From: Octopus sinensis | Taxonomy: Eukaryota | Direction: 5' to 3' | Assembly (NCBI RefSeq): GCF_006345805.1 | Contig: NC_042997.1 | Location: 50,778,001-50,842,000 of the forward strand | Length of the DNA stretch: 64,000 bases | Part shown: positions 3,720-58,157 of the stretch, piece by piece | How the letters are laid out: the number at the start of each line of letters is the position of its first letter | Numbering within the stretch: the stretch's first letter is position 1 | Translations under genes and position numbers: made by a program | The notes under the pieces: generated by a model | The model's database searches: none | The model's input: the letters and a program-made list of their open reading frames with translations, nothing else | What the model was told of the DNA's origin: nothing

Positions 3720-4786
3720 CTGTGCATATATTAATTCAAATCTCTCCGTTACCTATTCTTTTACCTGAGTATTAGCTATCTGGTTATTAGATTTCCACTT
3801 ACTCGGACTCAAAATATCCTTACTCTACTCTCTTCTCCAAAATACATGTGCTCCTTCCACTAGTCTTAGAATTCCTCCTCAGAACCACCAGCAACTGTTC
3901 TTGCATCGAGAAAATCTGCTTCTCTTCACCTTTCTTTGAAGTTCTCCACTGTAAATTCAACGCTAAAACTCATTTGGGTACTTGCATTCATCCCATACTG
4001 CTGCCACTGGTGACAGCAGTATCAGATGAGTTGCAATCCTCAGCTCTTTACATCACCTACTCCTATACGCATCCATGACGCCACACAGATCTTTCAAACA
4101 CAGTTGATCTCTTTCTCACTTTCAAATTCAACTCCAGAATTCTCGCTATCTTTGCATCTATCTCGCCGTCCGACCTCTGCTTTATCACCACTATGTACTG
4201 CGCATCCATATACTACACAGCGCTATCCACCTCACGAACTTCAAATCAGCTAACTTGTCAGAGATCTGCCAGTTTTATGCTAAATATCAGCGATTATACT
4301 TTTCACATTGACCTATCAGAAAACACTAAACAGGTGACAGATACAGCATTCTATAGTTATGTCTTCTCATGCATCCCTACAAATCGAATGGCCTTTAGCT
4401 CCAGAAAATTCCTCGTGAAGACTGAAAGAAGCCTCTCACAGCCCGTAATCACTTCCGCTTCCCAAAATGTACTAGATTCTATTGGTCCTTTGCCAAAACA
4501 ATATCTACCAGTTTTCGGAACCCTCCTTTATTCCACTTTCCAACCATGTAAGCGGCATTCACAGAAAAAGTAGAGAAAGCAACACAATACCAATTGATAA
4601 ATGCTGCACATCTGCTGTTCGCTTTGCATCCAACTTCAAAGTAAATTCGTCCAAAACATATTCCTTATCACTCCGGCAAGCTTATCATCGTATGCTCTTA
4701 CATGCCAACTACAAAAGCAGCTTCAGTCGACTCAAACTATTAAGGCTAACGCACTACGTCGAACTTTCCAACCCTCTTTTCCCCCT

Positions 4787-7619: not shown

Positions 7620-10470
7620 AGTTGGAGGAGGAGTGGCAGTTTTATGACCTTTACATATCCTCCTAGACTGATAAGATCGATTGATGTTCAGTTTGAACTG
7701 CAATAGGTCGACTCCTATAGAAAAAGAACATGGGGCAGAAGTTCCAGGTGTATGCAATTTAGAAGAATAATTGTGCAAAATGTTTAGTGCAGGGACTGGG
7801 TGGAAGGAAACAGTAGGAATGGTGAGAGGTGAAGTAGTTGCTGTATTTATGAGGAGGTGGTGAGTAGCTCGTTTGTTCAGATCAGTAGATGTCGATGCAG
7901 TAAGGGTAGAAAAAGACAGATACGTCGCATCAGTCAGTGAGTTAGTGGTTGTAGTGCGTTGGTGAATGAGGCTTCCAATCAGATAAACGGATTTTTTAAA
8001 TCTTTATATATAAAAGTGAAGTTGTGTGTCTGTCTCCTACGATTTAGATTCCTAACTACTCCCACATTTTGCGGTGCAGTTTAACCAAAAGCGAGTATCT
8101 TATAGTCGTGATTCATATCGAGCCCTTCTGGGTATTAGCGCGCGTCTACGATGAGTCTACGATTTAAAAAAAAAATTACCATCATTTTTTCCCATTTTTA
8201 ATGCATTTTTTTGCTATTATATAAGGGAAGTAACTCTCTAAAAATGCTTATATATAGAGAATACCAAACGAGTTCCCTATGGATACCGTATTTATTACAC
8301 ACGAATAAACGACCATATTTTATTAACCCAATAACTAAATTCTTCAAGTTTAGTTGTAACTTATGAATGACAAAAGTAGTGCCGTCACCGTGAGCTCGGG
8401 TCATCCCCATGTATTGGCCAATCAGAAGCATCGCTGTCACCGTGACCTCGGGTCATCACCATGGATTGACCAATCAGAAGGAGCGCTCGCAGTACCTGAC
8501 ATATGTTAGATACCAAAAATATCTCAAAGTGTTCTCACTCACATGTGTGTAATAAAGTTATTTCCCTTACAAACCCGAGCAACGCCGGGCGATACTGCTA
8601 GTAATGTATAAAATATTTGAGCATACAACAACAGCACCACCCCAGAAAAGTGAGCCCTACCAATATGAATCGTGTTTCAGCTTTGTAAAGAGTAAGAAAC
8701 TTATCTAGATTTTAGTGTCTTCTGACTCTAAAATGAAAATCTAATAATTTTCTGTATTGCTGTTGTTTTTGCAATGTTGTATATGTGGAGCCGCCATGAA
8801 CGTTAATGAGAGGATGTCAGACTTTGCATTTGTAGCAACTTTCAGGGATTTAATCATATGCTGTGCAGGACTATAGAGGGATTACTAGTGTTTGCTTGAT
8901 AAATATCGTGATGCTAGGTTACCATATCTCCATTGAAGATTATTCTCAAGGACACTGTAGACAGCACAGTCAAGAATGAAATATTTAGGTTGAATGTGGA
9001 TATGTGCAGATTATCAAAGCGGTGCCCTCTGTATAGGAAGATGTGTTGTTAGATGTGATAGCAGGTAAATCATTAATATTCAAAAGGAATGAGATGTAAG
9101 TGAACCTGCGGGTACCCCTGATTTATTAGAGAGAGTGGTATTAGTACAACATACTAAGTGTAAGGGATAAGAATCAGTTAGGTAAATTAGTTTAAACCTA
9201 CAAGTTATCATCTAATATTTCATCTAAAGTTGTGTTTACGTCAAGAGCAATAACATTGCTTTTTCTTAAGATCTAAGAGAGAAATATCGCTGGTAATCGG
9301 TGTATAAGGTCGAATGTTCACTATATTTGGCTGACCAGAAACCAGACAACAGCCAATTAAAGGAGCGATAGATTTAAAGTGTTGAAGGAGTTTGTAGTTT
9401 GTAAACATTTTGACATCTTTGAGATGTCGCAAGTTAAGGTAACAAGGTGACATTTGGCAGCGTCAGTGACTCTGCTTCAGAATAGGACAAAATATCATGT
9501 GATTCCATGCGCTGGAATATCTTGCAGGTGACAAAGAACAAATGAGAACAAGTTCTGAATCACATAGTTTGTTATTACCGGAAAGAGCACTATTAGAAAT
9601 TGCTGTTTTGTTGGGTCGAAGCAGAGATCATTTATGCATCGTGGTGACATAGAATGGAGACGTAGAGTCTGGGAAGAGGTTTTTTTTCTCTTTACTGAGT
9701 TAGAAGCAAAACATTCAGCAACTCTTGCGGTTTTATGAACAAGTCTGATACAGAGCTAGCTTGATTGAATATTGAGGGATGGAAATATTCTTCAAAATTG
9801 GTAAATACTTCTCTTGCAAGAAACCAGGAGCCCTAGTTGCAATTTATTCACAGTATGAAGTCGTCCTTTCCTTTCTTGGTGCTTTTGATGCAGATGTAAT
9901 GGAAGATATACTTTCAACTGGCGACCCTGGCTGATTTTTCATCATGGGATGAAGGTAATTTTCTTCCCATTCACAGCTACATGGCAGTTGCAAGTGAAGC
10001 ACCTAATGGTTCGGAGTTATATAATATGACAGTGTGAAAGATGTGAAGAGAATACCTACGGATAGTATCGATCACCTACTTAGTTGCTTTGTATGGTTCA
10101 GAGATGAGGCATATTTGCTGCTAAAAGTAGTCAGCATAAAACGGGTGAAGTTCCAACCAGTTCCCTATCGCAGAGTTTCAGAATGTGCGGTGGAAGAAAT
10201 TTGTCGTTCATGATGTTAGATGGGTTGTCTTGACGAGACGGCGGGTAAACGATGAATTACGGACAAAGTGGGAAAAACATATCAAGAGTTATTGCGGGGC
10301 GTTAGTGTGTAAGTCAGAGTATGTAAGTTAGAATACTAGCTGGGGCTGATAATTTAGATACAAGGTATGATACGGCCTCCACACCAGCAGGGAGAATTTG
10401 GGAGGAATGCAAGAAGAGGTGCTATGTGTTTTGAAATTCCTGGTGATGGTATCTTCAGACAGTCGTTAAT
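7620..10470 (-). pseudogene. Heavily decayed CR1/L2-group LINE interrupted by a Helitron
   Basis: Minus-strand LDKFLTLYKAETR motif near 8670-8710 resembles the plus-strand copy at 5760; boundaries approximate. Confidence 0.55.
8001..8601 (+). mobile_element. Non-autonomous Helitron
   Basis: Starts TC(tttatatataaaa), ends CTAG preceded by GC-rich hairpin cccgagc-aac-gccggg, inserted between A and T with no TSD. Confidence 0.9.
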
Positions 10471-52423: not shown

Positions 52424-53441
52424 TCGTTTTATTTTATTTACTGACTGATTTTTCAAATTGTGAATTTGCAAATATTATACTAATGTATTTTCATGCTGAA
52501 CTGCACTTTATCAAAATATTCCCTCCAAAAATGATGTTTGGAAGGGGTATATTCTAAATATAACTCAAAGAGGAGAAAAAGAAAGAAAGGAGGAAAAGAA
52601 AAGAAGAAGGAAAAAAGAAAAAGGATGAGGAAAAGAGAAAAAAAGGAAGAAAAGAGAAAGGGGGAGAAGGGGAGGGAAAAAAGGGAGAAGGGAGAAAAAA
52701 GCAAAATGATGACCAAAGTGCACTTGTTTTTTTTTTCTTTGAGGAGGTCATCATCCATAAACCCATTCCAGTACAATGTTAAAGGACTAAATAAATAAAT
52801 GAATGGTGAATAGGAAGGTGGATACCCCTTCTCTCTCTCTTTCTCTCTACCCAGCTGTCTATCTGTCTGATTATCTATCTATCTATATATCTATTAGCCT
52901 ATGTTCCTACCTATATTTCTATTTATCCGTCTCCATTGTCATGGAACCTCACGCAAGAAAAAGCAAAAACAATGTTCTCTTCTAAACAACCCCCGCCTCA
53001 CAAAAAAAACATCTGTTTTATGTAAATGAACAAGCTGTTTGTACATTCACAAAATATTATTTGTCAACGAAAGCACTAATAATAATAAAGAAATAAAAGG
53101 GTTTTTTCTAAAATTCTGACTACATTTTTTCTCAATACATATATATATATACTCATATATATGAATACATATTCATATATATAAATGATATATGTATGCA
53201 TATATATACAATATATACATACATACATATATACATACATATATATATATAGAAGACGTCCAGTCCTTAGAACGTGCAAGAAAAGAAAGATGGTCACACG
53301 AGGAAAAGAAAGATGGACGATGGGCACGCGTGAACAACGAGAGAGAAAACGAGAACTAACATACATATATATATATATATATATATACACATATGTACAT
53401 ATATATATATACATACACACACATATATATATATATACATA

Positions 53442-53491
<50 letters not shown>

Positions 53492-53827
53492 CATACGTAC
53501 ATATATATATATACATGGCATGTATGTGTATGTGTATTTGTATATATATGTGTATGTATATATATGTGTGTGCGTATGTATGTGTATGTGTGTGTATGTA
53601 TGTGTATGTATGTGTGTGTATGTATGTGTATAAGCGATAGTCTTCTTATTTACCTAAAACTCTATTCAATTATTCTATTTATTCTTTTAATTACTTTATC
53701 ACTGATTCTTTTGACCACTCCCCTAAGAAAGACAGTTTGCGCCCTGCTTACCCAAAAAATGTCCCCCACCACCACCCCATTAAACCTGCCTAAATGTATA
53801 AATGCCAAAACTTATCTTGACAGCAAA

Positions 53828-53874
53828 CTTCCTGATGATTTCATTTGAATGAAACAGTTCTAGTCCTGTAGAAG
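53828..53874 (+). ncRNA. Type I hammerhead ribozyme motif
   Basis: Stem I cttc/gaag, CTGATGA, short stem II ttc/gaa, GAAA, stem III acag/ctgt, GTA cleavage triplet. Confidence 0.75.
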
Positions 53875-54489
53875 CTGCTTCTATAAAATAAATATATATC
53901 TATTTGCGATGTCTGTTGTTTTATTGCATTGTTTCATTCATAATTTTTAAGTAGTGTTCGTTTTACCAAGTGAATATAATTTTTAATTCCATTTATTCTA
54001 TTTCTCCGTTCATAGTTTTGAGTGATGTCCGTTTTCTAGAGCGTGAATGTGGGTTGTATGTGTGTGTGTGTGGGAGTATGAATAAGTATTATGTTGAAGT
54101 ATTTAGCTATTTTATTTATTTATAGTTGCCTAGACATTTTTATGTGTATGTATAGGGATATATATATAGGTGTGTGATTTAGTGTATGTAGTTAGATATG
54201 GTTATATATAATTAGGTATATGCGTATGGGTGTATATATAGTTTATTATTATATTATTATTATTTTTTTTTGTTTTGTTTTATATTTTATATTTTATATT
54301 TTATATTTTATATTTTATATTTAATTGTTGATAGGTTTTTTTAGTTTATATATTGTTTATATATTGATTATATATGGATTATAGATAGGTTATATATGGA
54401 TTATATACTTATATTTTTTCATTCATACTTTAATTATTTTAAAATTATTATTTTTATATTTTAAAATATTGATTTTTTAGATTGGAAGT

Positions 54490-54532
54490 CCACCTGAAGA
54501 TTGTCGATCAAGATAAGAAACGATTGTAGTGG
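54490..54532 (+). ncRNA. Minimal type I hammerhead ribozyme motif
   Basis: Stem I ccac/gtgg, CTGAAGA, stem II ttgtc/gataa, GAAAC-gatt-GTA. Confidence 0.82.
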
Positions 54533-54618
54533 CGGTTTTTTTTGACTATTATTAAAATTTTATGTATTGATTAAGTCTTTCCTTGTTTGTTTTGCAAAAT
54601 AGTGTTTTGTCTCGAATA

Positions 54619-54688
<70 letters not shown>

Positions 54689-54699
54689 CTGTTTACTGT

Positions 54700-55105
54700 T
54701 CTACTGTTTTACTTGTTTCAGTCATTTGAATGCGGCCATGCTGGAGCACCGCCTTTAGTCGAGCAAATCGACCCCGGGACTTATTCTTTGTAAGCCCAGT
54801 ACTTATTCTATCGGTCTCTTTTGCCGAACCGCTAAGTGACGGGGACGTAAACACACCAGCATCGGTTGTCAAGCAATGCTAGGGGGACAAACACAGACAC
54901 ACAAACATATACACACACACTTATATATATATACATATATACGACAGGCTTCTTTCAGTTTCCGTCTACCAAATCCACTTACAAGGCATTGGTCGGCCCG
55001 GGGCTATAGCAGAAGACACTTGCTCAAGATGCCACGCAGTGGGACTGAACCCGGAACCATGTGGTTGGTTAGCAAGCTACTTACTACACAGCCACTCCTG
55101 CGCCT
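54700..55105 (-). mobile_element. SINE family S1, full length
   Basis: Near-consensus copy flanked by (TA)n. Confidence 0.95.
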
Positions 55106-55106
55106 A

Positions 55107-55138
<32 letters not shown>

Positions 55139-55349
55139 AAATTTCGAAATGTACGTCCGTAGGTGACTTAATATAGAATGATTGTCGTCATTTCTTTCTC
55201 TTTTGCCTGCGTTGTTTGCCTTTTAAGTGCTGGGTTTTTACTGGGATCTCCCTTTTAAGTAGAAAGAATAGCCATAACTCTTTGGCTGCTATTTCTAAAT
55301 TCGGTGTGTGGTGAGGCAAATCGTTGCTAAACCCTTAATTACTTAGTAT

Positions 55350-55423
<74 letters not shown>

Positions 55424-55860: not shown

Positions 55861-56381
55861 TCACATGTTTAATCATGGAGCAGTTACATGTTTAGTCATG
55901 GAGCCATGCAATCAATGTTGCTCGTTCGAAAGGATTTTGTGGTGTGAATGAAAATTTGAGAATCTATTGGTAGTATTTGTGGATAGATAGGGTGGGGGGA
56001 AAGATGGGTATGATTAGAATGGGGAGACAGGTCAAAATGAAAACAGGAAGAGAAAATGAGAAGAAGAAATAAAAAAGAAAAAAGAAAAAAGAGAGAGAGA
56101 AAAAACAAAGAGTGAAAAAGTAAAGAAAGAGTGAAAGAAGTGAGGGAGTGAGTGTTAATTGGTGGTCAAGATAATGTGGTGGGAGGATGGGATAGGTGCA
56201 GGGGAGGGGTAGGAAGAGATGAGAAGGTAAGGAGTAAAAGAATGTGAGATATGTGAGTAGGGGTGATATGACAGAGCTGCATTAAGGGGTGGGTAGAGAA
56301 AAGATATGGGTGGGGTAAAAGTAGAGGAAACGTGTAGAAAAGGTAGAGAAAATAATTCGAACTTAGATATTTTCTCAAACC

Positions 56382-56429
56382 GTCTCTGATGAAGGGATAT
56401 CCATAATATCCCAGAAACAGCTGTAAGGC
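56382..56429 (+). ncRNA. Minimal type I hammerhead ribozyme motif
   Basis: Stem I gtct/aggc, CTGATGA, 7-bp stem II gggatat/atatccc, GAAAC-AGCT-GTA with palindromic loop III. Confidence 0.85.
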
Positions 56430-56512
56430 TATTTCATTATAAATGTCCTGAAAAGTCCTCACAGCCTTGGATTTGTTATCTCATTCTGTCTGTCTGTCTC
56501 TCTCTCTCCCCC

Positions 56513-57394: not shown

Positions 57395-58157
<763 letters not shown>

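What the first reader, a model, noticed from the sequence alone, without database searches (positions are those of the whole stretch)
53630..54625. Two different hammerheads in tandem, 660 nt apart, in a coding-free unit between (TA)n arrays
Seen: motifs at 53828 and 54490 on the same strand with unrelated stems, each followed by AATAAA/ATTAAA and a T-rich tail. Established: paired hammerheads in retrozymes and Penelope pLTRs release monomer RNAs that can circularise. Inference: either two stacked pLTR ends or a non-autonomous retrozyme-like unit releasing a ~658-nt RNA (53871-54528). The first motif has a competing tttcatt/aatgaaa hairpin that would mask GAAA.
Basis: partly seen in the sequence, partly recalled or inferred. 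Interest (0 to 1): 0.75.

Follow-up and report, generated by a model that had tools for sequence, protein, structure and literature searches.

The report
Two stacked Penelope-element tails with hammerheads
Two broken tail ends of two different Penelope-like jumping genes lie head to tail in a TA repeat, each carrying its family's hammerhead ribozyme motif, which is predicted but not shown to cut RNA; this arrangement is ordinary and already described.

Summary
Both motifs are at the stated places and are more than chance. A hammerhead descriptor finds 3 sites in the window, against 0.03-0.16 in 300 shuffles.

The "unit" is two unrelated repeat fragments that abut at about 53891:
- **Family A**, 53630-53893.
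- **Family B**, 53891-54625.

Each is a 5'-truncated 3' tail of a high-copy retroelement. Other copies share the 3' end at a microsatellite, have variable 5' ends and form inverted head-to-head pairs.

Family B is a Penelope-like element (PLE). [quoted passage not shown] Family A has remnants of a related ORF upstream in 2 of 3 loci.

Motif 2 is a good minimal hammerhead that is predicted to fold as a dimer, and a subfamily carries a compensatory change in helix II. Motif 1 has the full core and helices I and III, but only a 3-bp helix II with a competing hairpin.

The two motif types share none of 88 sampled loci, so the retrozyme reading fails and "two stacked pLTR ends" holds. Cleavage is untested. 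This is a known kind of element. Earlier notes of this scan describe the same on other genomes.

The parts
53360..53629 (.). (TA)n/(TG)n microsatellite, left flank and presumed target
   Evidence: Sequence. In Rfam's E-value mode the only matches over this array are microsatellite-like microRNA models.
53630..53893 (+). Family A: a 5'-truncated, roughly 264-nt 3'-terminal tail fragment of a Penelope-like retroelement family
   Evidence: There are 1184 or more first-look candidates; the 40 scored are 93-97% identical and end at query position 262-266. Other copies extend 1.4 kb or more upstream, with variable 5' ends and one shared 3' end. ORF remnants related to the family-B protein lie upstream on the same strand in 2 of 3 loci.
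53828..53874 (+). Hammerhead motif 1 (A-type): helix I CUUC/GAAG, CUGAUGA, a 3-bp helix II UUC/GAA, GAAA, helix III ACAG/CUGU with loop UUCUAGUC. The predicted cut is after A53870.
   Evidence: In other copies helix I is AGCUUC/GAAGCU, 6-9 bp; the window copy has a G>A change that gives an A.C mismatch. The active fold lies 2.1 kcal/mol above the minimum-free-energy fold in this subfamily and 0.3 kcal/mol above it in two others.
53891..54479 (+). Family B, part 1: the last ~589 nt of the element's 1,819-nt GT-AG intron. The 3' splice site TTTTTTAG lies at 54472-54479.
   Evidence: The window copy starts at L003-equivalent 1501. The intron spans L003 271-2089, AATT|GTAAGT ... TTTTTTAG|ATTGG. 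Many genomic copies lack exactly this stretch.
54480..54625 (+). Family B, part 2: the terminal 146-nt exon segment of the tail (pLTR end), which carries the hammerhead
   Evidence: Its 3' end is shared by 19 of 19 family-B loci. In full-length copies the same segment lies just upstream of the ORF, for example L033 3827-4141 with the ATG near 4281.
54490..54532 (+). Hammerhead motif 2 (B-type): helix I CCAC/GUGG, CUGAAGA, helix II UUGUC/GAUAA (GACAA in 20 of 21 aligned copies), GAAA, and a quasi-palindromic helix III ACGAUUGU. The predicted cut is after A54528.
   Evidence: The minimum-free-energy fold of the dimer is a double hammerhead with every core base unpaired. A subfamily has AUGUC/GACAU and CUGACGA.
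54626..54686 (.). (TA)n microsatellite, right flank and presumed target
   Evidence: Sequence. Family-B copies in other loci also end at (TA)n.
56351..56491 (+). Family C terminal segment with a third hammerhead motif (56382-56429): GUCU, CUGAUGA, A, GGGAUAU/AUAUCCC, A, GAAA, palindromic ACAGCUGU, A, AGGC. (CT)n/(TA)n follows.
   Evidence: Across 37 distinct copies helix II is 87% paired, against 29-58% with shifted partners. No ORF was linked to this family.

Best explanation
The 1-kb unit is two separate 5'-truncated tail fragments of two different Penelope-like retroelement (PLE) families lying head to tail in a (TA)n microsatellite, each keeping the hammerhead motif that its family carries near its 3' end; the motifs are predicted, not shown, to self-cleave.

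Shown here:
- Family A (53630-53893) and family B (53891-54625) are independent high-copy repeats that are not found together in any other sampled locus.
- Both families have one shared 3' end at a microsatellite, variable 5' truncation and head-to-head inverted partners.
[quoted passage not shown] Its full-length copies have a tail fragment with the hammerhead just upstream of the ORF, which is the pLTR-ORF-pLTR layout.
- The window's family-B fragment is the end of an 1,819-nt intron plus the 146-nt terminal exon, so it was copied from unspliced RNA.

Inferred:
- Both fragments arose by target-primed reverse transcription that began at the element's 3' end and stopped early. This happened either as two successive insertions into the same TA repeat or as one event with a template switch.
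- In an active element the hammerhead in the upstream repeat would cut the leader RNA about 230 nt before the start codon. B-type would act as a dimer through its quasi-palindromic helix III. A-type would act as a monomer whose helix II competes with a hairpin that hides G12-A14.
- In this window the two fragments are dead relics. A 658-nt RNA would be released only if a read-through transcript were made and both weak ribozymes cut it.
For: Repeat anatomy.
- B: 3548 first-look candidates, 40 scored, all 95-99% identical over query 262-996.
- A: 1184 candidates, 40 scored, 93-97% identical.
- 5' ends vary and the 3' end is shared. Inverted partners occur.

PLE identity of B.
- The longest open frame is 859 aa (L045), with YRDD and VVYKC...AVYIGSTS...RIAQH.
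- It aligns end to end at 29% identity with P0124, whose residues 685-730 match Pfam GIY-YIG at E 2.5e-4.
- The nearest named ESM Atlas clusters carry GIY-YIG, RVT_1 and HTH_animal.
- A tail fragment lies upstream of the ORF in L031, L033, L034, L038, L043 and L044.

Link of A to a PLE. tblastn of the B protein hits upstream of the A tail in 2 of 3 loci, at E 4.8e-17 and 6.9e-16.

Motifs.
- 3 descriptor hits against 0.03-0.16 expected, each near the 3' end of a different repeat family and on the family's sense strand.
- B-type subfamily 2 changes pair 10.1-11.1 from U-A to A-U, N7 from A to C, and loop 2, while keeping the core. Subfamily 3 lengthens helix I to 6 bp.
- A-type subfamilies differ only at two loop bases of helix II and keep a 6-9 bp helix I in 10 of 12 distinct copies.
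- The dimer fold of B is a double hammerhead, at -23.4 kcal/mol against 2 x -7.5 for monomers.

No co-occurrence of the two motif types: 0 of 88 loci.

Literature.
- Minimal hammerheads sit in both flanking repeats of PLEs, with helix I of 4-5 bp and a palindromic helix III, are thought to act as dimers, and in D. virilis an intron ends at helix I (PMC4209133; text parts 1-2 read).
- Hammerheads lie near the 3' ends, (TA)n is a preferred target, and inverted 5'-truncated copies are common (PMC8557442; passages read).
Against: - No Rfam hammerhead model matches, even at E <= 10.
- Pfam recognises neither the RT nor the endonuclease in the element's own protein. The GIY-YIG call rests on a homologue just under Pfam's cut-off (21.7 against 22.6 bits) and on motifs read by eye.
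- Motif 1 has only a 3-bp helix II flanked by U.U. In the window's subfamily the minimum-free-energy fold pairs G12-A14, whose probability of being unpaired is 0.27-0.36.
- Motif 2 lacks the G10.1-C11.1 pair and the bulged base that Cervera and de la Pena list as typical.
- The genome-wide excess of the motifs (3822 against 8, and 2278 against 3 reversed-pattern controls) only shows that they ride in high-copy repeats. It does not show that they are selected.
- Variation within families is mostly decay, with few compensatory changes.
- There is no footprint of cleavage. 0 of 29 family-B copies sampled by their last 97 nt begin at the predicted cut site.
- No ORF was found upstream of the family-A tail in 1 of 3 loci.
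Confidence: 0.87

Rival explanations
1. A non-autonomous retrozyme-like element. The two hammerheads would bound one mobile unit whose 658-nt RNA (53871-54528) is cut out, may circularise, and is copied back into DNA.
For: Two same-strand hammerhead motifs lie 658 nt apart with no ORF between them. A 2026 preprint argues that animal retrozymes derive from PLE terminal repeats (10.64898/2026.07.22.740005; abstract only seen).
Against: The two halves belong to different repeat families whose boundary lies between the motifs. 0 of 19 B loci hold A, 0 of 9 A loci hold B, and 0 of 88 loci hold both motif types. The two ribozymes differ, and their helix III sequences cannot pair with each other to form a dimer. 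No tandem array of the unit exists here.
Confidence: 0.03
2. One chimeric insertion rather than two. Reverse transcription would have started on a family-B RNA, stopped inside its intron, and jumped to the 3' end of a family-A RNA. That would make the A-B junction in a single event.
For: Only a few TA bases (roughly 53894-53899) separate the end of A from the start of B, and these could serve as microhomology. Both fragments have the same orientation. PLE copies in this genome show frequent template switching, seen as head-to-head pairs in about half of the first 100 B-type places listed, by my count.
Against: The composite is unique among the sampled loci. Both families target TA repeats, so two hits in one repeat are expected anyway. 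Nothing in the sequence tells the two histories apart.
Confidence: 0.15
3. Motif 1 is not a working ribozyme. It would be a decayed or re-purposed relative of a hammerhead, kept as a structure recognised during reverse transcription or carried along by chance.
For: Helix II has only 3 bp plus a U.U. The competing hairpin UUCAU/AUGAA is the minimum-free-energy fold in the window's subfamily. Published PLE hammerheads cut poorly in vitro (PMC4209133), and catalytic mutants did not affect insertion in vitro for the anole element (PMC11167929; passages read).
Against: Core bases CUGAUGA, GAAA and the GUA cut site are intact in all 13 aligned sequences (the window and 12 copies) and in three subfamilies. 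Helices I and III are kept. The active fold lies only 0.3-2.1 kcal/mol above the minimum. The A-type motif shares its GAAACAG...CUGUA module with the C-type motif, which has a 7-bp helix II.
Confidence: 0.3

Closest known systems
Minimal hammerheads (min-HHR) in the terminal repeats of metazoan Penelope-like elements (Cervera and de la Pena 2014, PMC4209133)
   Same: The motifs are type-I, with a 4-6 bp helix I and a complete CUGANGA/GAAA/UH core. Helix III is short or absent and (quasi-)palindromic, which implies dimers. They sit in both flanking repeats of an RT plus GIY-YIG element, occur in thousands of mostly solitary truncated copies, and are often paired on opposite strands.
   Different: B-type has U-A or A-U instead of G10.1-C11.1, no bulged base after A9, and a 5-bp rather than a 6-8 bp helix II. 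A-type has a stable 4-bp helix III with an 8-nt loop (monomer-like) but only a 3-bp helix II. C-type has an extra base on both sides of helix II.
Penelope of Drosophila virilis: an intron in the terminal repeat that ends at the hammerhead (described in PMC4209133, citing Arkhipova et al. 2003)
   Same: Family B has a GT-AG intron in the repeat whose 3' splice site lies 10 nt before helix I. The genome holds both intron-containing and precisely intron-less copies.
   Different: The intron here is 1,819 nt. That the fly intron is far shorter is recalled and comes from no call. Here helix I is the same in spliced and unspliced forms, whereas in the fly the splice changes the ribozyme.
Poseidon PAc of the green anole (Frangieh et al. 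2024, PMC11167929)
   Same: The hammerhead lies at the junction of the terminal repeat and the ORF. That study found no reads ending at the cut site, and unprocessed RNA was the substrate in vitro. This matches 0 of 29 family-B copies starting at the cut site here.
   Different: In PAc the ORF starts inside the ribozyme. Here the start codon lies about 230 nt downstream of the cut site. No biochemistry was done here.
Metazoan non-LTR retrozymes (Cervera and de la Pena 2020, PMC7229834, search listing and start of the abstract only; Li et al. 2026 preprint, abstract only)
   Same: They are short, ORF-free repeats bounded by type-I hammerheads, and are proposed derivatives of PLE terminal repeats.
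   Different: Retrozymes are tandem repeats of one unit with the same ribozyme at each boundary. Here two unrelated fragments with different ribozymes meet at a single sampled locus.

Membership tests
Hammerhead ribozyme (type I / PLE min-HHR) | Catalytic core C3-U4-G5-A6-N7-G8-A9, G12-A13-A14, the A15.1-U16.1 pair, and H17 not G | tested here: met
   Motif 1 has CUGAUGA...GAAA...U-A and motif 2 has CUGAAGA...GAAA...U-A. The core is kept in all 13 aligned A sequences and all 21 aligned B sequences, the window's own included.
Hammerhead ribozyme (type I / PLE min-HHR) | Helix I formed by the bases just 5' of the core and just 3' of the cut site | tested here: met
   Motif 1 has 4 bp in the window and 6-9 bp in 10 of 12 distinct family copies. 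Motif 2 has CCAC/GUGG, 4 bp, in 40 of 44 instances and 6 bp in subfamily 3.
Hammerhead ribozyme (type I / PLE min-HHR) | Helix II between A9 and G12. In PLE min-HHRs it is 6-8 bp with G10.1-C11.1 and a bulged base after A9. | tested here: inconclusive
   Motif 2 has 5 bp with one compensatory U-A to A-U change between subfamilies, but no G-C at 10.1-11.1 and no bulge. Motif 1 has only 3 bp (UUC/GAA) flanked by U.U, and a rival hairpin competes with it.
Hammerhead ribozyme (type I / PLE min-HHR) | Helix III that is a hairpin or is palindromic, so that two copies pair | tested here: met
   Motif 1 has ACAG/CUGU with a loop that contains the palindrome CUAG. In motif 2, ACGAUUGU pairs with itself over 8 bp including 2 G.U pairs. 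The dimer's minimum-free-energy fold is a double hammerhead.
Hammerhead ribozyme (type I / PLE min-HHR) | A match to a curated covariance model (the Rfam hammerhead families) | tested here: not met
   There is no hammerhead match at gathering score or at E <= 10 on 53000-55400. PMC4209133 reports that such minimal forms needed a relaxed descriptor, and some escaped even that.
Hammerhead ribozyme (type I / PLE min-HHR) | Site-specific self-cleavage | not testable with these tools
   No run on record as RNA and no raw reads were on offer. Laid contigs cannot show RNA ends. The indirect genomic test was negative: 0 of 29 copies start at the cut site.
Penelope-like element (canonical, C-terminal endonuclease) | A single ORF with a reverse transcriptase followed by a GIY-YIG endonuclease | tested here: met
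   For family B: an 859-aa frame with YRDD and a GIY-YIG-like C-terminus, an end-to-end alignment to P0124 whose aligned stretch matches Pfam GIY-YIG at E 2.5e-4, just under the cut-off, and ESM Atlas neighbours that carry GIY-YIG and RVT_1. Pfam finds nothing on the element's own protein. For family A there are only remnants, 27-40% identical to B's RT and endonuclease, in 2 of 3 loci.
Penelope-like element (canonical, C-terminal endonuclease) | Pseudo-LTRs: part of the tail repeated upstream of the ORF | tested here: met
   For family B, tail fragments that end about 140 nt before the ATG occur in L031, L033, L034, L038, L043 and L044. This was not examined for family A.
Penelope-like element (canonical, C-terminal endonuclease) | 5'-truncated copies with a shared 3' end, inverted head-to-head partners, and insertion into microsatellites | tested here: met
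   Both fragments in the window are flanked by (TA)n. PMC8557442 (passages read) names these as PLE traits.
Retrozyme (non-autonomous, hammerhead-bounded repeat) | The same unit, bounded by the same ribozyme, repeated in tandem or dispersed as a unit | tested here: not met
   The two halves are different families. 0 of 88 loci hold both motif types.

The most novel reading that the evidence does not exclude
In family B the hammerhead sits 10 nt after the 3' splice site of an 1.8-kb intron, and 40 of 41 spliced genomic copies reach only 12-23 nt into the upstream exon. The boldest reading still open is this: the terminal repeat fires its own promoter, and the roughly 170-nt spliced, hammerhead-bearing leader RNA is itself the most often reverse-transcribed product of the element. 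That leader would be a retrozyme-like passenger made by the autonomous element. In that reading the close placing of splice site and ribozyme, also seen in fly Penelope, is a conserved functional coupling rather than an accident.
Probability: 0.2. Interest if true: 0.55.

Novelty: new member of a known kind. Interest (0 to 1): 0.25.

Why it matters
The finding resolves into textbook PLE anatomy, so it does not open a new class.

Its use is as a worked example:
- A pair of different hammerheads a few hundred bases apart in a TA-rich animal genome should first be read as stacked tail fragments, not as a retrozyme.
- The genome holds thousands of copies of three hammerhead variants. Spliced and unspliced forms exist side by side, and there is no genomic footprint of cleavage.
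- That makes it a convenient natural data set for the open question of what PLE hammerheads are for.

Tried and rejected
- **Rfam.** Gathering score on the whole window and on 8 related loci, and E <= 10 on 53000-55400. No hammerhead family matched. The hits were microsatellite-like microRNA models, a few other weak chance matches, and one tRNA-like hit in L033.
- **Pfam.** Searches on the element's ORF pieces and on seven homologues gave nothing relevant. One search gave one near-threshold GIY-YIG match, in P0124.
- **Profile of 8 homologues against PDB sequences.** Only a chance hit, at E 0.27.
- **RNA evidence.** No RNA holder was listed; all 21 runs are kept as contigs and their kind is a guess.
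- **Second read laying, beside that stretch.** It gave short contigs that bridge the cut site in runs of guessed kind. This says nothing about cleavage.
- **ORF search for family C.** 10 kb upstream of four copies held no match to the family-B protein, and the copies share only about 1.2 kb. Family C is therefore not shown to be a PLE.
- **Earlier notes of this scan.** None exist for this genome.
- **Within-family covariation as a test of structure.** Most variation is single-sided decay in dead copies, so I did not lean on it.
- **AATAAA and ATTAAA as polyadenylation signals.** The sequence is AT-rich, and family A ends 1-3 nt after its AATAAA. I give them no weight.
- **Lunse et al. 2017 on dimeric PLE hammerheads.** This is recalled only. 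One search did not list it as held, so nothing is taken from it.
Full report
**Observation.**
- Motif 1 runs from 53828 to 53874: CTTC, CTGATGA, twelve bases, GAAA, ACAG-TTCTAGTC-CTGT, A, GAAG.
- Motif 2 runs from 54490 to 54532: CCAC, CTGAAGA, TTGTC-GATCAA-GATAA, GAAA, CGATTGT, A, GTGG.
- The predicted cut sites are 53870/53871 and 54528/54529, 658 nt apart.
- AATAAA (53887-92) and ATTAAA (54551-56) follow the motifs.
- Microsatellites flank the unit, and no stop-to-stop frame longer than 56 aa lies wholly inside it.

The motifs are more than chance.
- The bare core occurs 11 times in the window, against 4.2 +/- 2.1 in shuffles.
- A descriptor that also asks for helix I of at least 4 bp and helix III of 2-4 pairs ending in U-H finds three sites. 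All are on the + strand: the two reported and one at 56386.
- The expectation is 0.16, 0.06 or 0.03, and 0 of 300 dinucleotide shuffles reach three.
- Rfam finds no hammerhead, at gathering score on the window or at E <= 10 on 53000-55400.

**The unit is two repeats, not one.** A search of the window's own genome (2.72 Gb, unnamed) with 53630-54625 matched only query positions 262-996. The 40 scored places were 95-99% identical, out of 3548 first-look candidates. A search with 53630-53895 matched a different set of places. The 40 scored were 93-97% identical, out of 1184 candidates, and they end at query position 262-266. So family A (53630-53893) and family B (53891-54625) abut between the two motifs.

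In other loci both families run further upstream, to different points, and share one 3' end.
- Family-B copies begin at L003-equivalent positions 14 to 1501 and all end at a (TA)n.
- Family-A copies begin at L025-equivalent 337 to 1442 and end at 1764-1767.
- Both families show partial copies in inverted, head-to-head order next to one another.

**Family B is a Penelope-like element (PLE).**
- Two loci share 6.1 kb upstream of the tail at 96% identity.
- That stretch holds a + strand ORF broken into three frames in L033 and open for 859 aa in L045. It carries GLYRDD and, near the C-terminus, VVYKC...AVYIGSTS...RIAQH.
- The genome holds at least 13257 first-look candidates for its RT part, of which 131 were scored.
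- Pfam finds nothing in this N-rich protein.
- Homologues exist at 32-38% identity.
- One homologue, P0124, aligns end to end at 29% identity (E 1e-103). Over the stretch that aligns to the element's GIY-YIG-like block, P0124 matches Pfam GIY-YIG at E 2.5e-4 (21.7 bits; the cut-off is 22.6).
- The nearest named ESM Atlas clusters (score 0.95-0.98) carry HTH_animal, DUF8422, GIY-YIG and RVT_1.
- In full-length copies a fragment of the tail, hammerhead included, lies just before the ORF. In L033 it is at 3827-4141, with the ATG near 4281. L031, L034, L038, L043 and L044 show the same. This is the pLTR-ORF-pLTR layout of PLEs.

**Family A is linked to a PLE less firmly.** On the same strand, 1.7-2.4 kb upstream of the A tail, 2 of 3 loci hold remnants that are 27-40% identical to B's RT and endonuclease (E 4.8e-17 and 6.9e-16). 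The third locus has none.

**Motif 2 (B-type).**
- In 20 of 21 aligned copies helix II is UUGUC/GACAA. The window copy has a C-to-T change that leaves a G.U pair.
- Helix III, ACGAUUGU, pairs with itself over 8 bp including two G.U pairs.
- The minimum-free-energy fold of two copies is a double hammerhead with every core base unpaired. Its energy is -23.4 kcal/mol, against 2 x -7.5 for monomers; for the window's own copy it is -19.6 against 2 x -7.1.
- Genome-wide, CTGANGA-N10-22-GAAACGATTGTA occurs 1136 + 1142 times, against 0 + 3 for the reversed pattern. This shows copy number, not selection.
- The subfamilies are more telling. One has CUGACGA, AUGUC-AUUGAA-GACAU. Its pair 10.1-11.1 has changed on both sides (U-A to A-U), the free core position N7 and loop 2 have changed, and the core is kept. 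Another has helix I lengthened to AACCAC/GUGGUU in an otherwise divergent tail.
- B-type lacks the G10.1-C11.1 pair and the bulged base that Cervera and de la Pena list as usual for PLE hammerheads (PMC4209133; text parts 1-2 read).

**Motif 1 (A-type).**
- In the other copies helix I is AGCUUC/GAAGCU, extended to 8-9 bp in some. It is 6-9 bp in 10 of 12 distinct copies. The window copy has a G-to-A change that leaves 4 bp.
- Helix III (ACAG/CUGU) and the whole core are kept.
- The stretch between A9 and G12 is UUUC-NN-UUGAAU. That allows only UUC/GAA, 3 bp, flanked by U.U.
- The three subfamilies differ only at the two loop bases.
- The same UUC can instead pair with G12-A14. In the window's subfamily that rival hairpin is the minimum-free-energy fold. 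The active fold lies 2.1 kcal/mol higher, and G12-A14 are unpaired with probability 0.27-0.36.
- In the other two subfamilies the gap is 0.3 kcal/mol and the probability 0.61-0.69.
- A-type shares its GAAACAG...CUGUA module with the third motif, described next.

**The third motif (C-type, 56382-56429).** It has a 7-bp helix II (GGGAUAU/AUAUCCC) and a perfectly palindromic ACAGCUGU.
- It lies in the last 141 nt of a third repeat family, next to (CT)n/(TA)n.
- A-type and C-type together match CTGATGA-N8-24-GAAACAG-N0-10-CTGTA 1946 + 1876 times, against 3 + 5 for the control. By eye, the first 100 listed are about half of each type.
- Over 37 distinct C-type copies helix II is 87% paired (225 of 259 cells), against 29-58% with shifted partners. 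The variation is mostly one-sided decay.
- No ORF was found within 10 kb upstream of four C copies, which share only about 1.2 kb. Family C's nature is therefore open.

**The retrozyme reading fails.**
- 0 of 19 family-B loci hold family A within 1.5-kb flanks, and 0 of 9 family-A loci hold family B.
- 0 of 88 loci hold both motif types. These were 30 loci picked by the A/C pattern, 30 by the B pattern, 19 by the B tail and 9 by the A tail; some overlap.
- The two ribozymes differ, and their helix III sequences cannot pair with each other.
- The pairing in the window is therefore an accident of two insertions into one TA repeat, or of one insertion with a template switch. The sequence cannot tell these apart. 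Only a few TA bases lie between the end of A and the start of B.

**An intron next to the hammerhead.** Sampling family B by its last 97 nt showed that in most copies homology to the long tail starts exactly at window-equivalent 54480, preceded by a different conserved sequence.
- That sequence lies 1.8 kb upstream in the long tail and is followed there by GTAAGT. The window has TTTTTTAG just before 54480.
- So the tail holds a GT-AG intron of 1,819 nt (L003 271-2089). Its 3' splice site lies 10 nt before helix I.
- The window's family-B fragment is the last ~589 nt of the intron plus the 146-nt terminal exon, so it was copied from unspliced RNA.
- Precisely intron-less copies are common. They are 22 of 32 distinct instances in loci picked by the tail, and 10 of 30 in loci picked by the hammerhead pattern. 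Among those 30, 10 more are unspliced and 10 are 'other'. By eye, the 'other' class is 2 unspliced copies with a 1-nt deletion, 4 spliced copies with a mutated or shortened leader, and 4 copies of other subfamilies.
- Of 41 spliced copies (overlapping loci not de-duplicated), 40 reach only 12-23 nt into the upstream exon, eight of them exactly 23 nt, and one reaches 132 nt.
- This fits a main RNA 5' end 23 nt before the 5' splice site. That is an inference.
- About half of the first 100 B-type places listed are tight inverted pairs (24 pairs by my count) whose arms meet within those 23 nt.
- A-type pairs meet inside the palindrome GAAGCTTC, at helix I.
- Introns in PLE repeats, one that ends at the hammerhead in D. 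virilis, and inverted truncated partners are all in print (PMC4209133, parts 1-2; PMC8557442, passages).

**Is the RNA cut?** Nothing here shows it.
- If cleaved leader RNA were a common template, copies would begin at the cut site. 0 of 29 copies sampled by the tail do.
- No run on record as RNA, and no raw reads, were available.
- For the anole element, catalytic mutants did not affect insertion in vitro, and no reads ended at the cut site (PMC11167929; passages read). Schistosome and fly motifs cut poorly in vitro (PMC4209133).
- The most likely mechanism, as proposed in those papers, remains self-scission of the leader or of tandem transcripts, at low efficiency or with help from other factors.
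- I put the chance that motif 1 in particular is not a working ribozyme at about 0.3.

**Verdict.** The stretch is an ordinary product of PLE biology: two dead tail fragments of two families in a TA repeat. Earlier notes of this scan on other genomes reached the same kind of conclusion. The families and their three hammerhead variants appear to be new members of a known kind. The intron placed beside the ribozyme and the stump-sized spliced copies are the only points of wider interest.

Noticed in passing
window 56351-56491 (+): A third hammerhead motif (56382-56429) has a 7-bp helix II, a perfectly palindromic helix III (ACAGCUGU) and an extra base on each side of helix II. It lies in the end of a third repeat family next to (CT)n/(TA)n. 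No ORF was found upstream of four copies, which share only about 1.2 kb, so this may be a short non-autonomous element.
   Followed up: partly
L003 271-2089; window 53891-54479: The tail of family B holds an 1,819-nt GT-AG intron that ends 10 nt before the hammerhead. Roughly a third to two thirds of sampled copies are precisely spliced. Of 41 spliced copies, 40 reach only 12-23 nt into the upstream exon, which suggests an RNA start 23 nt before the 5' splice site.
   Followed up: partly
many loci, e.g. L149, L154, L163 (B-type); L065, L067 (A-type): Stump-sized copies form head-to-head inverted pairs. B-type arms meet within the 23-nt upstream exon, and their centres differ between copies. 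A-type arms meet inside the palindrome GAAGCTTC, at helix I. About half of the first 100 B-type places listed are such pairs.
   Followed up: partly
family-A copies, e.g. L065, L067, L079, L091: After ...CTATAAAATAAAT, family-A copies continue either into (TA)n or into a shared TAATTTACTCTGCTATG... extension. This may be the optional 'tail' extension described for PLEs, or the start of a downstream tandem copy.
   Followed up: no
window 54692-55136 and 57397-57500: Another dispersed repeat follows the right-hand (TA)n array. It recurs at 76-95% identity in several of the fetched loci (L005, L008, L009, L011, L012, L020).
   Followed up: no
L031/L033 about 8000-10000: The 3' region of family B holds tandem repeats of about 1 kb at 91-93% identity, as well as shorter internal repeats (L003 579-964 resembles 1240-1653).
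   Followed up: no
L045 544-3123 (-), residues about 465-560 of P0001: The family-B protein has a long asparagine-rich, low-complexity linker between the RT and the endonuclease. This may be why Pfam fails on it.
   Followed up: no
L033 1176-1247 (-): A tRNA-like match (32.6 bits; gathering score 29) lies upstream of a full-length family-B copy.
   Followed up: no
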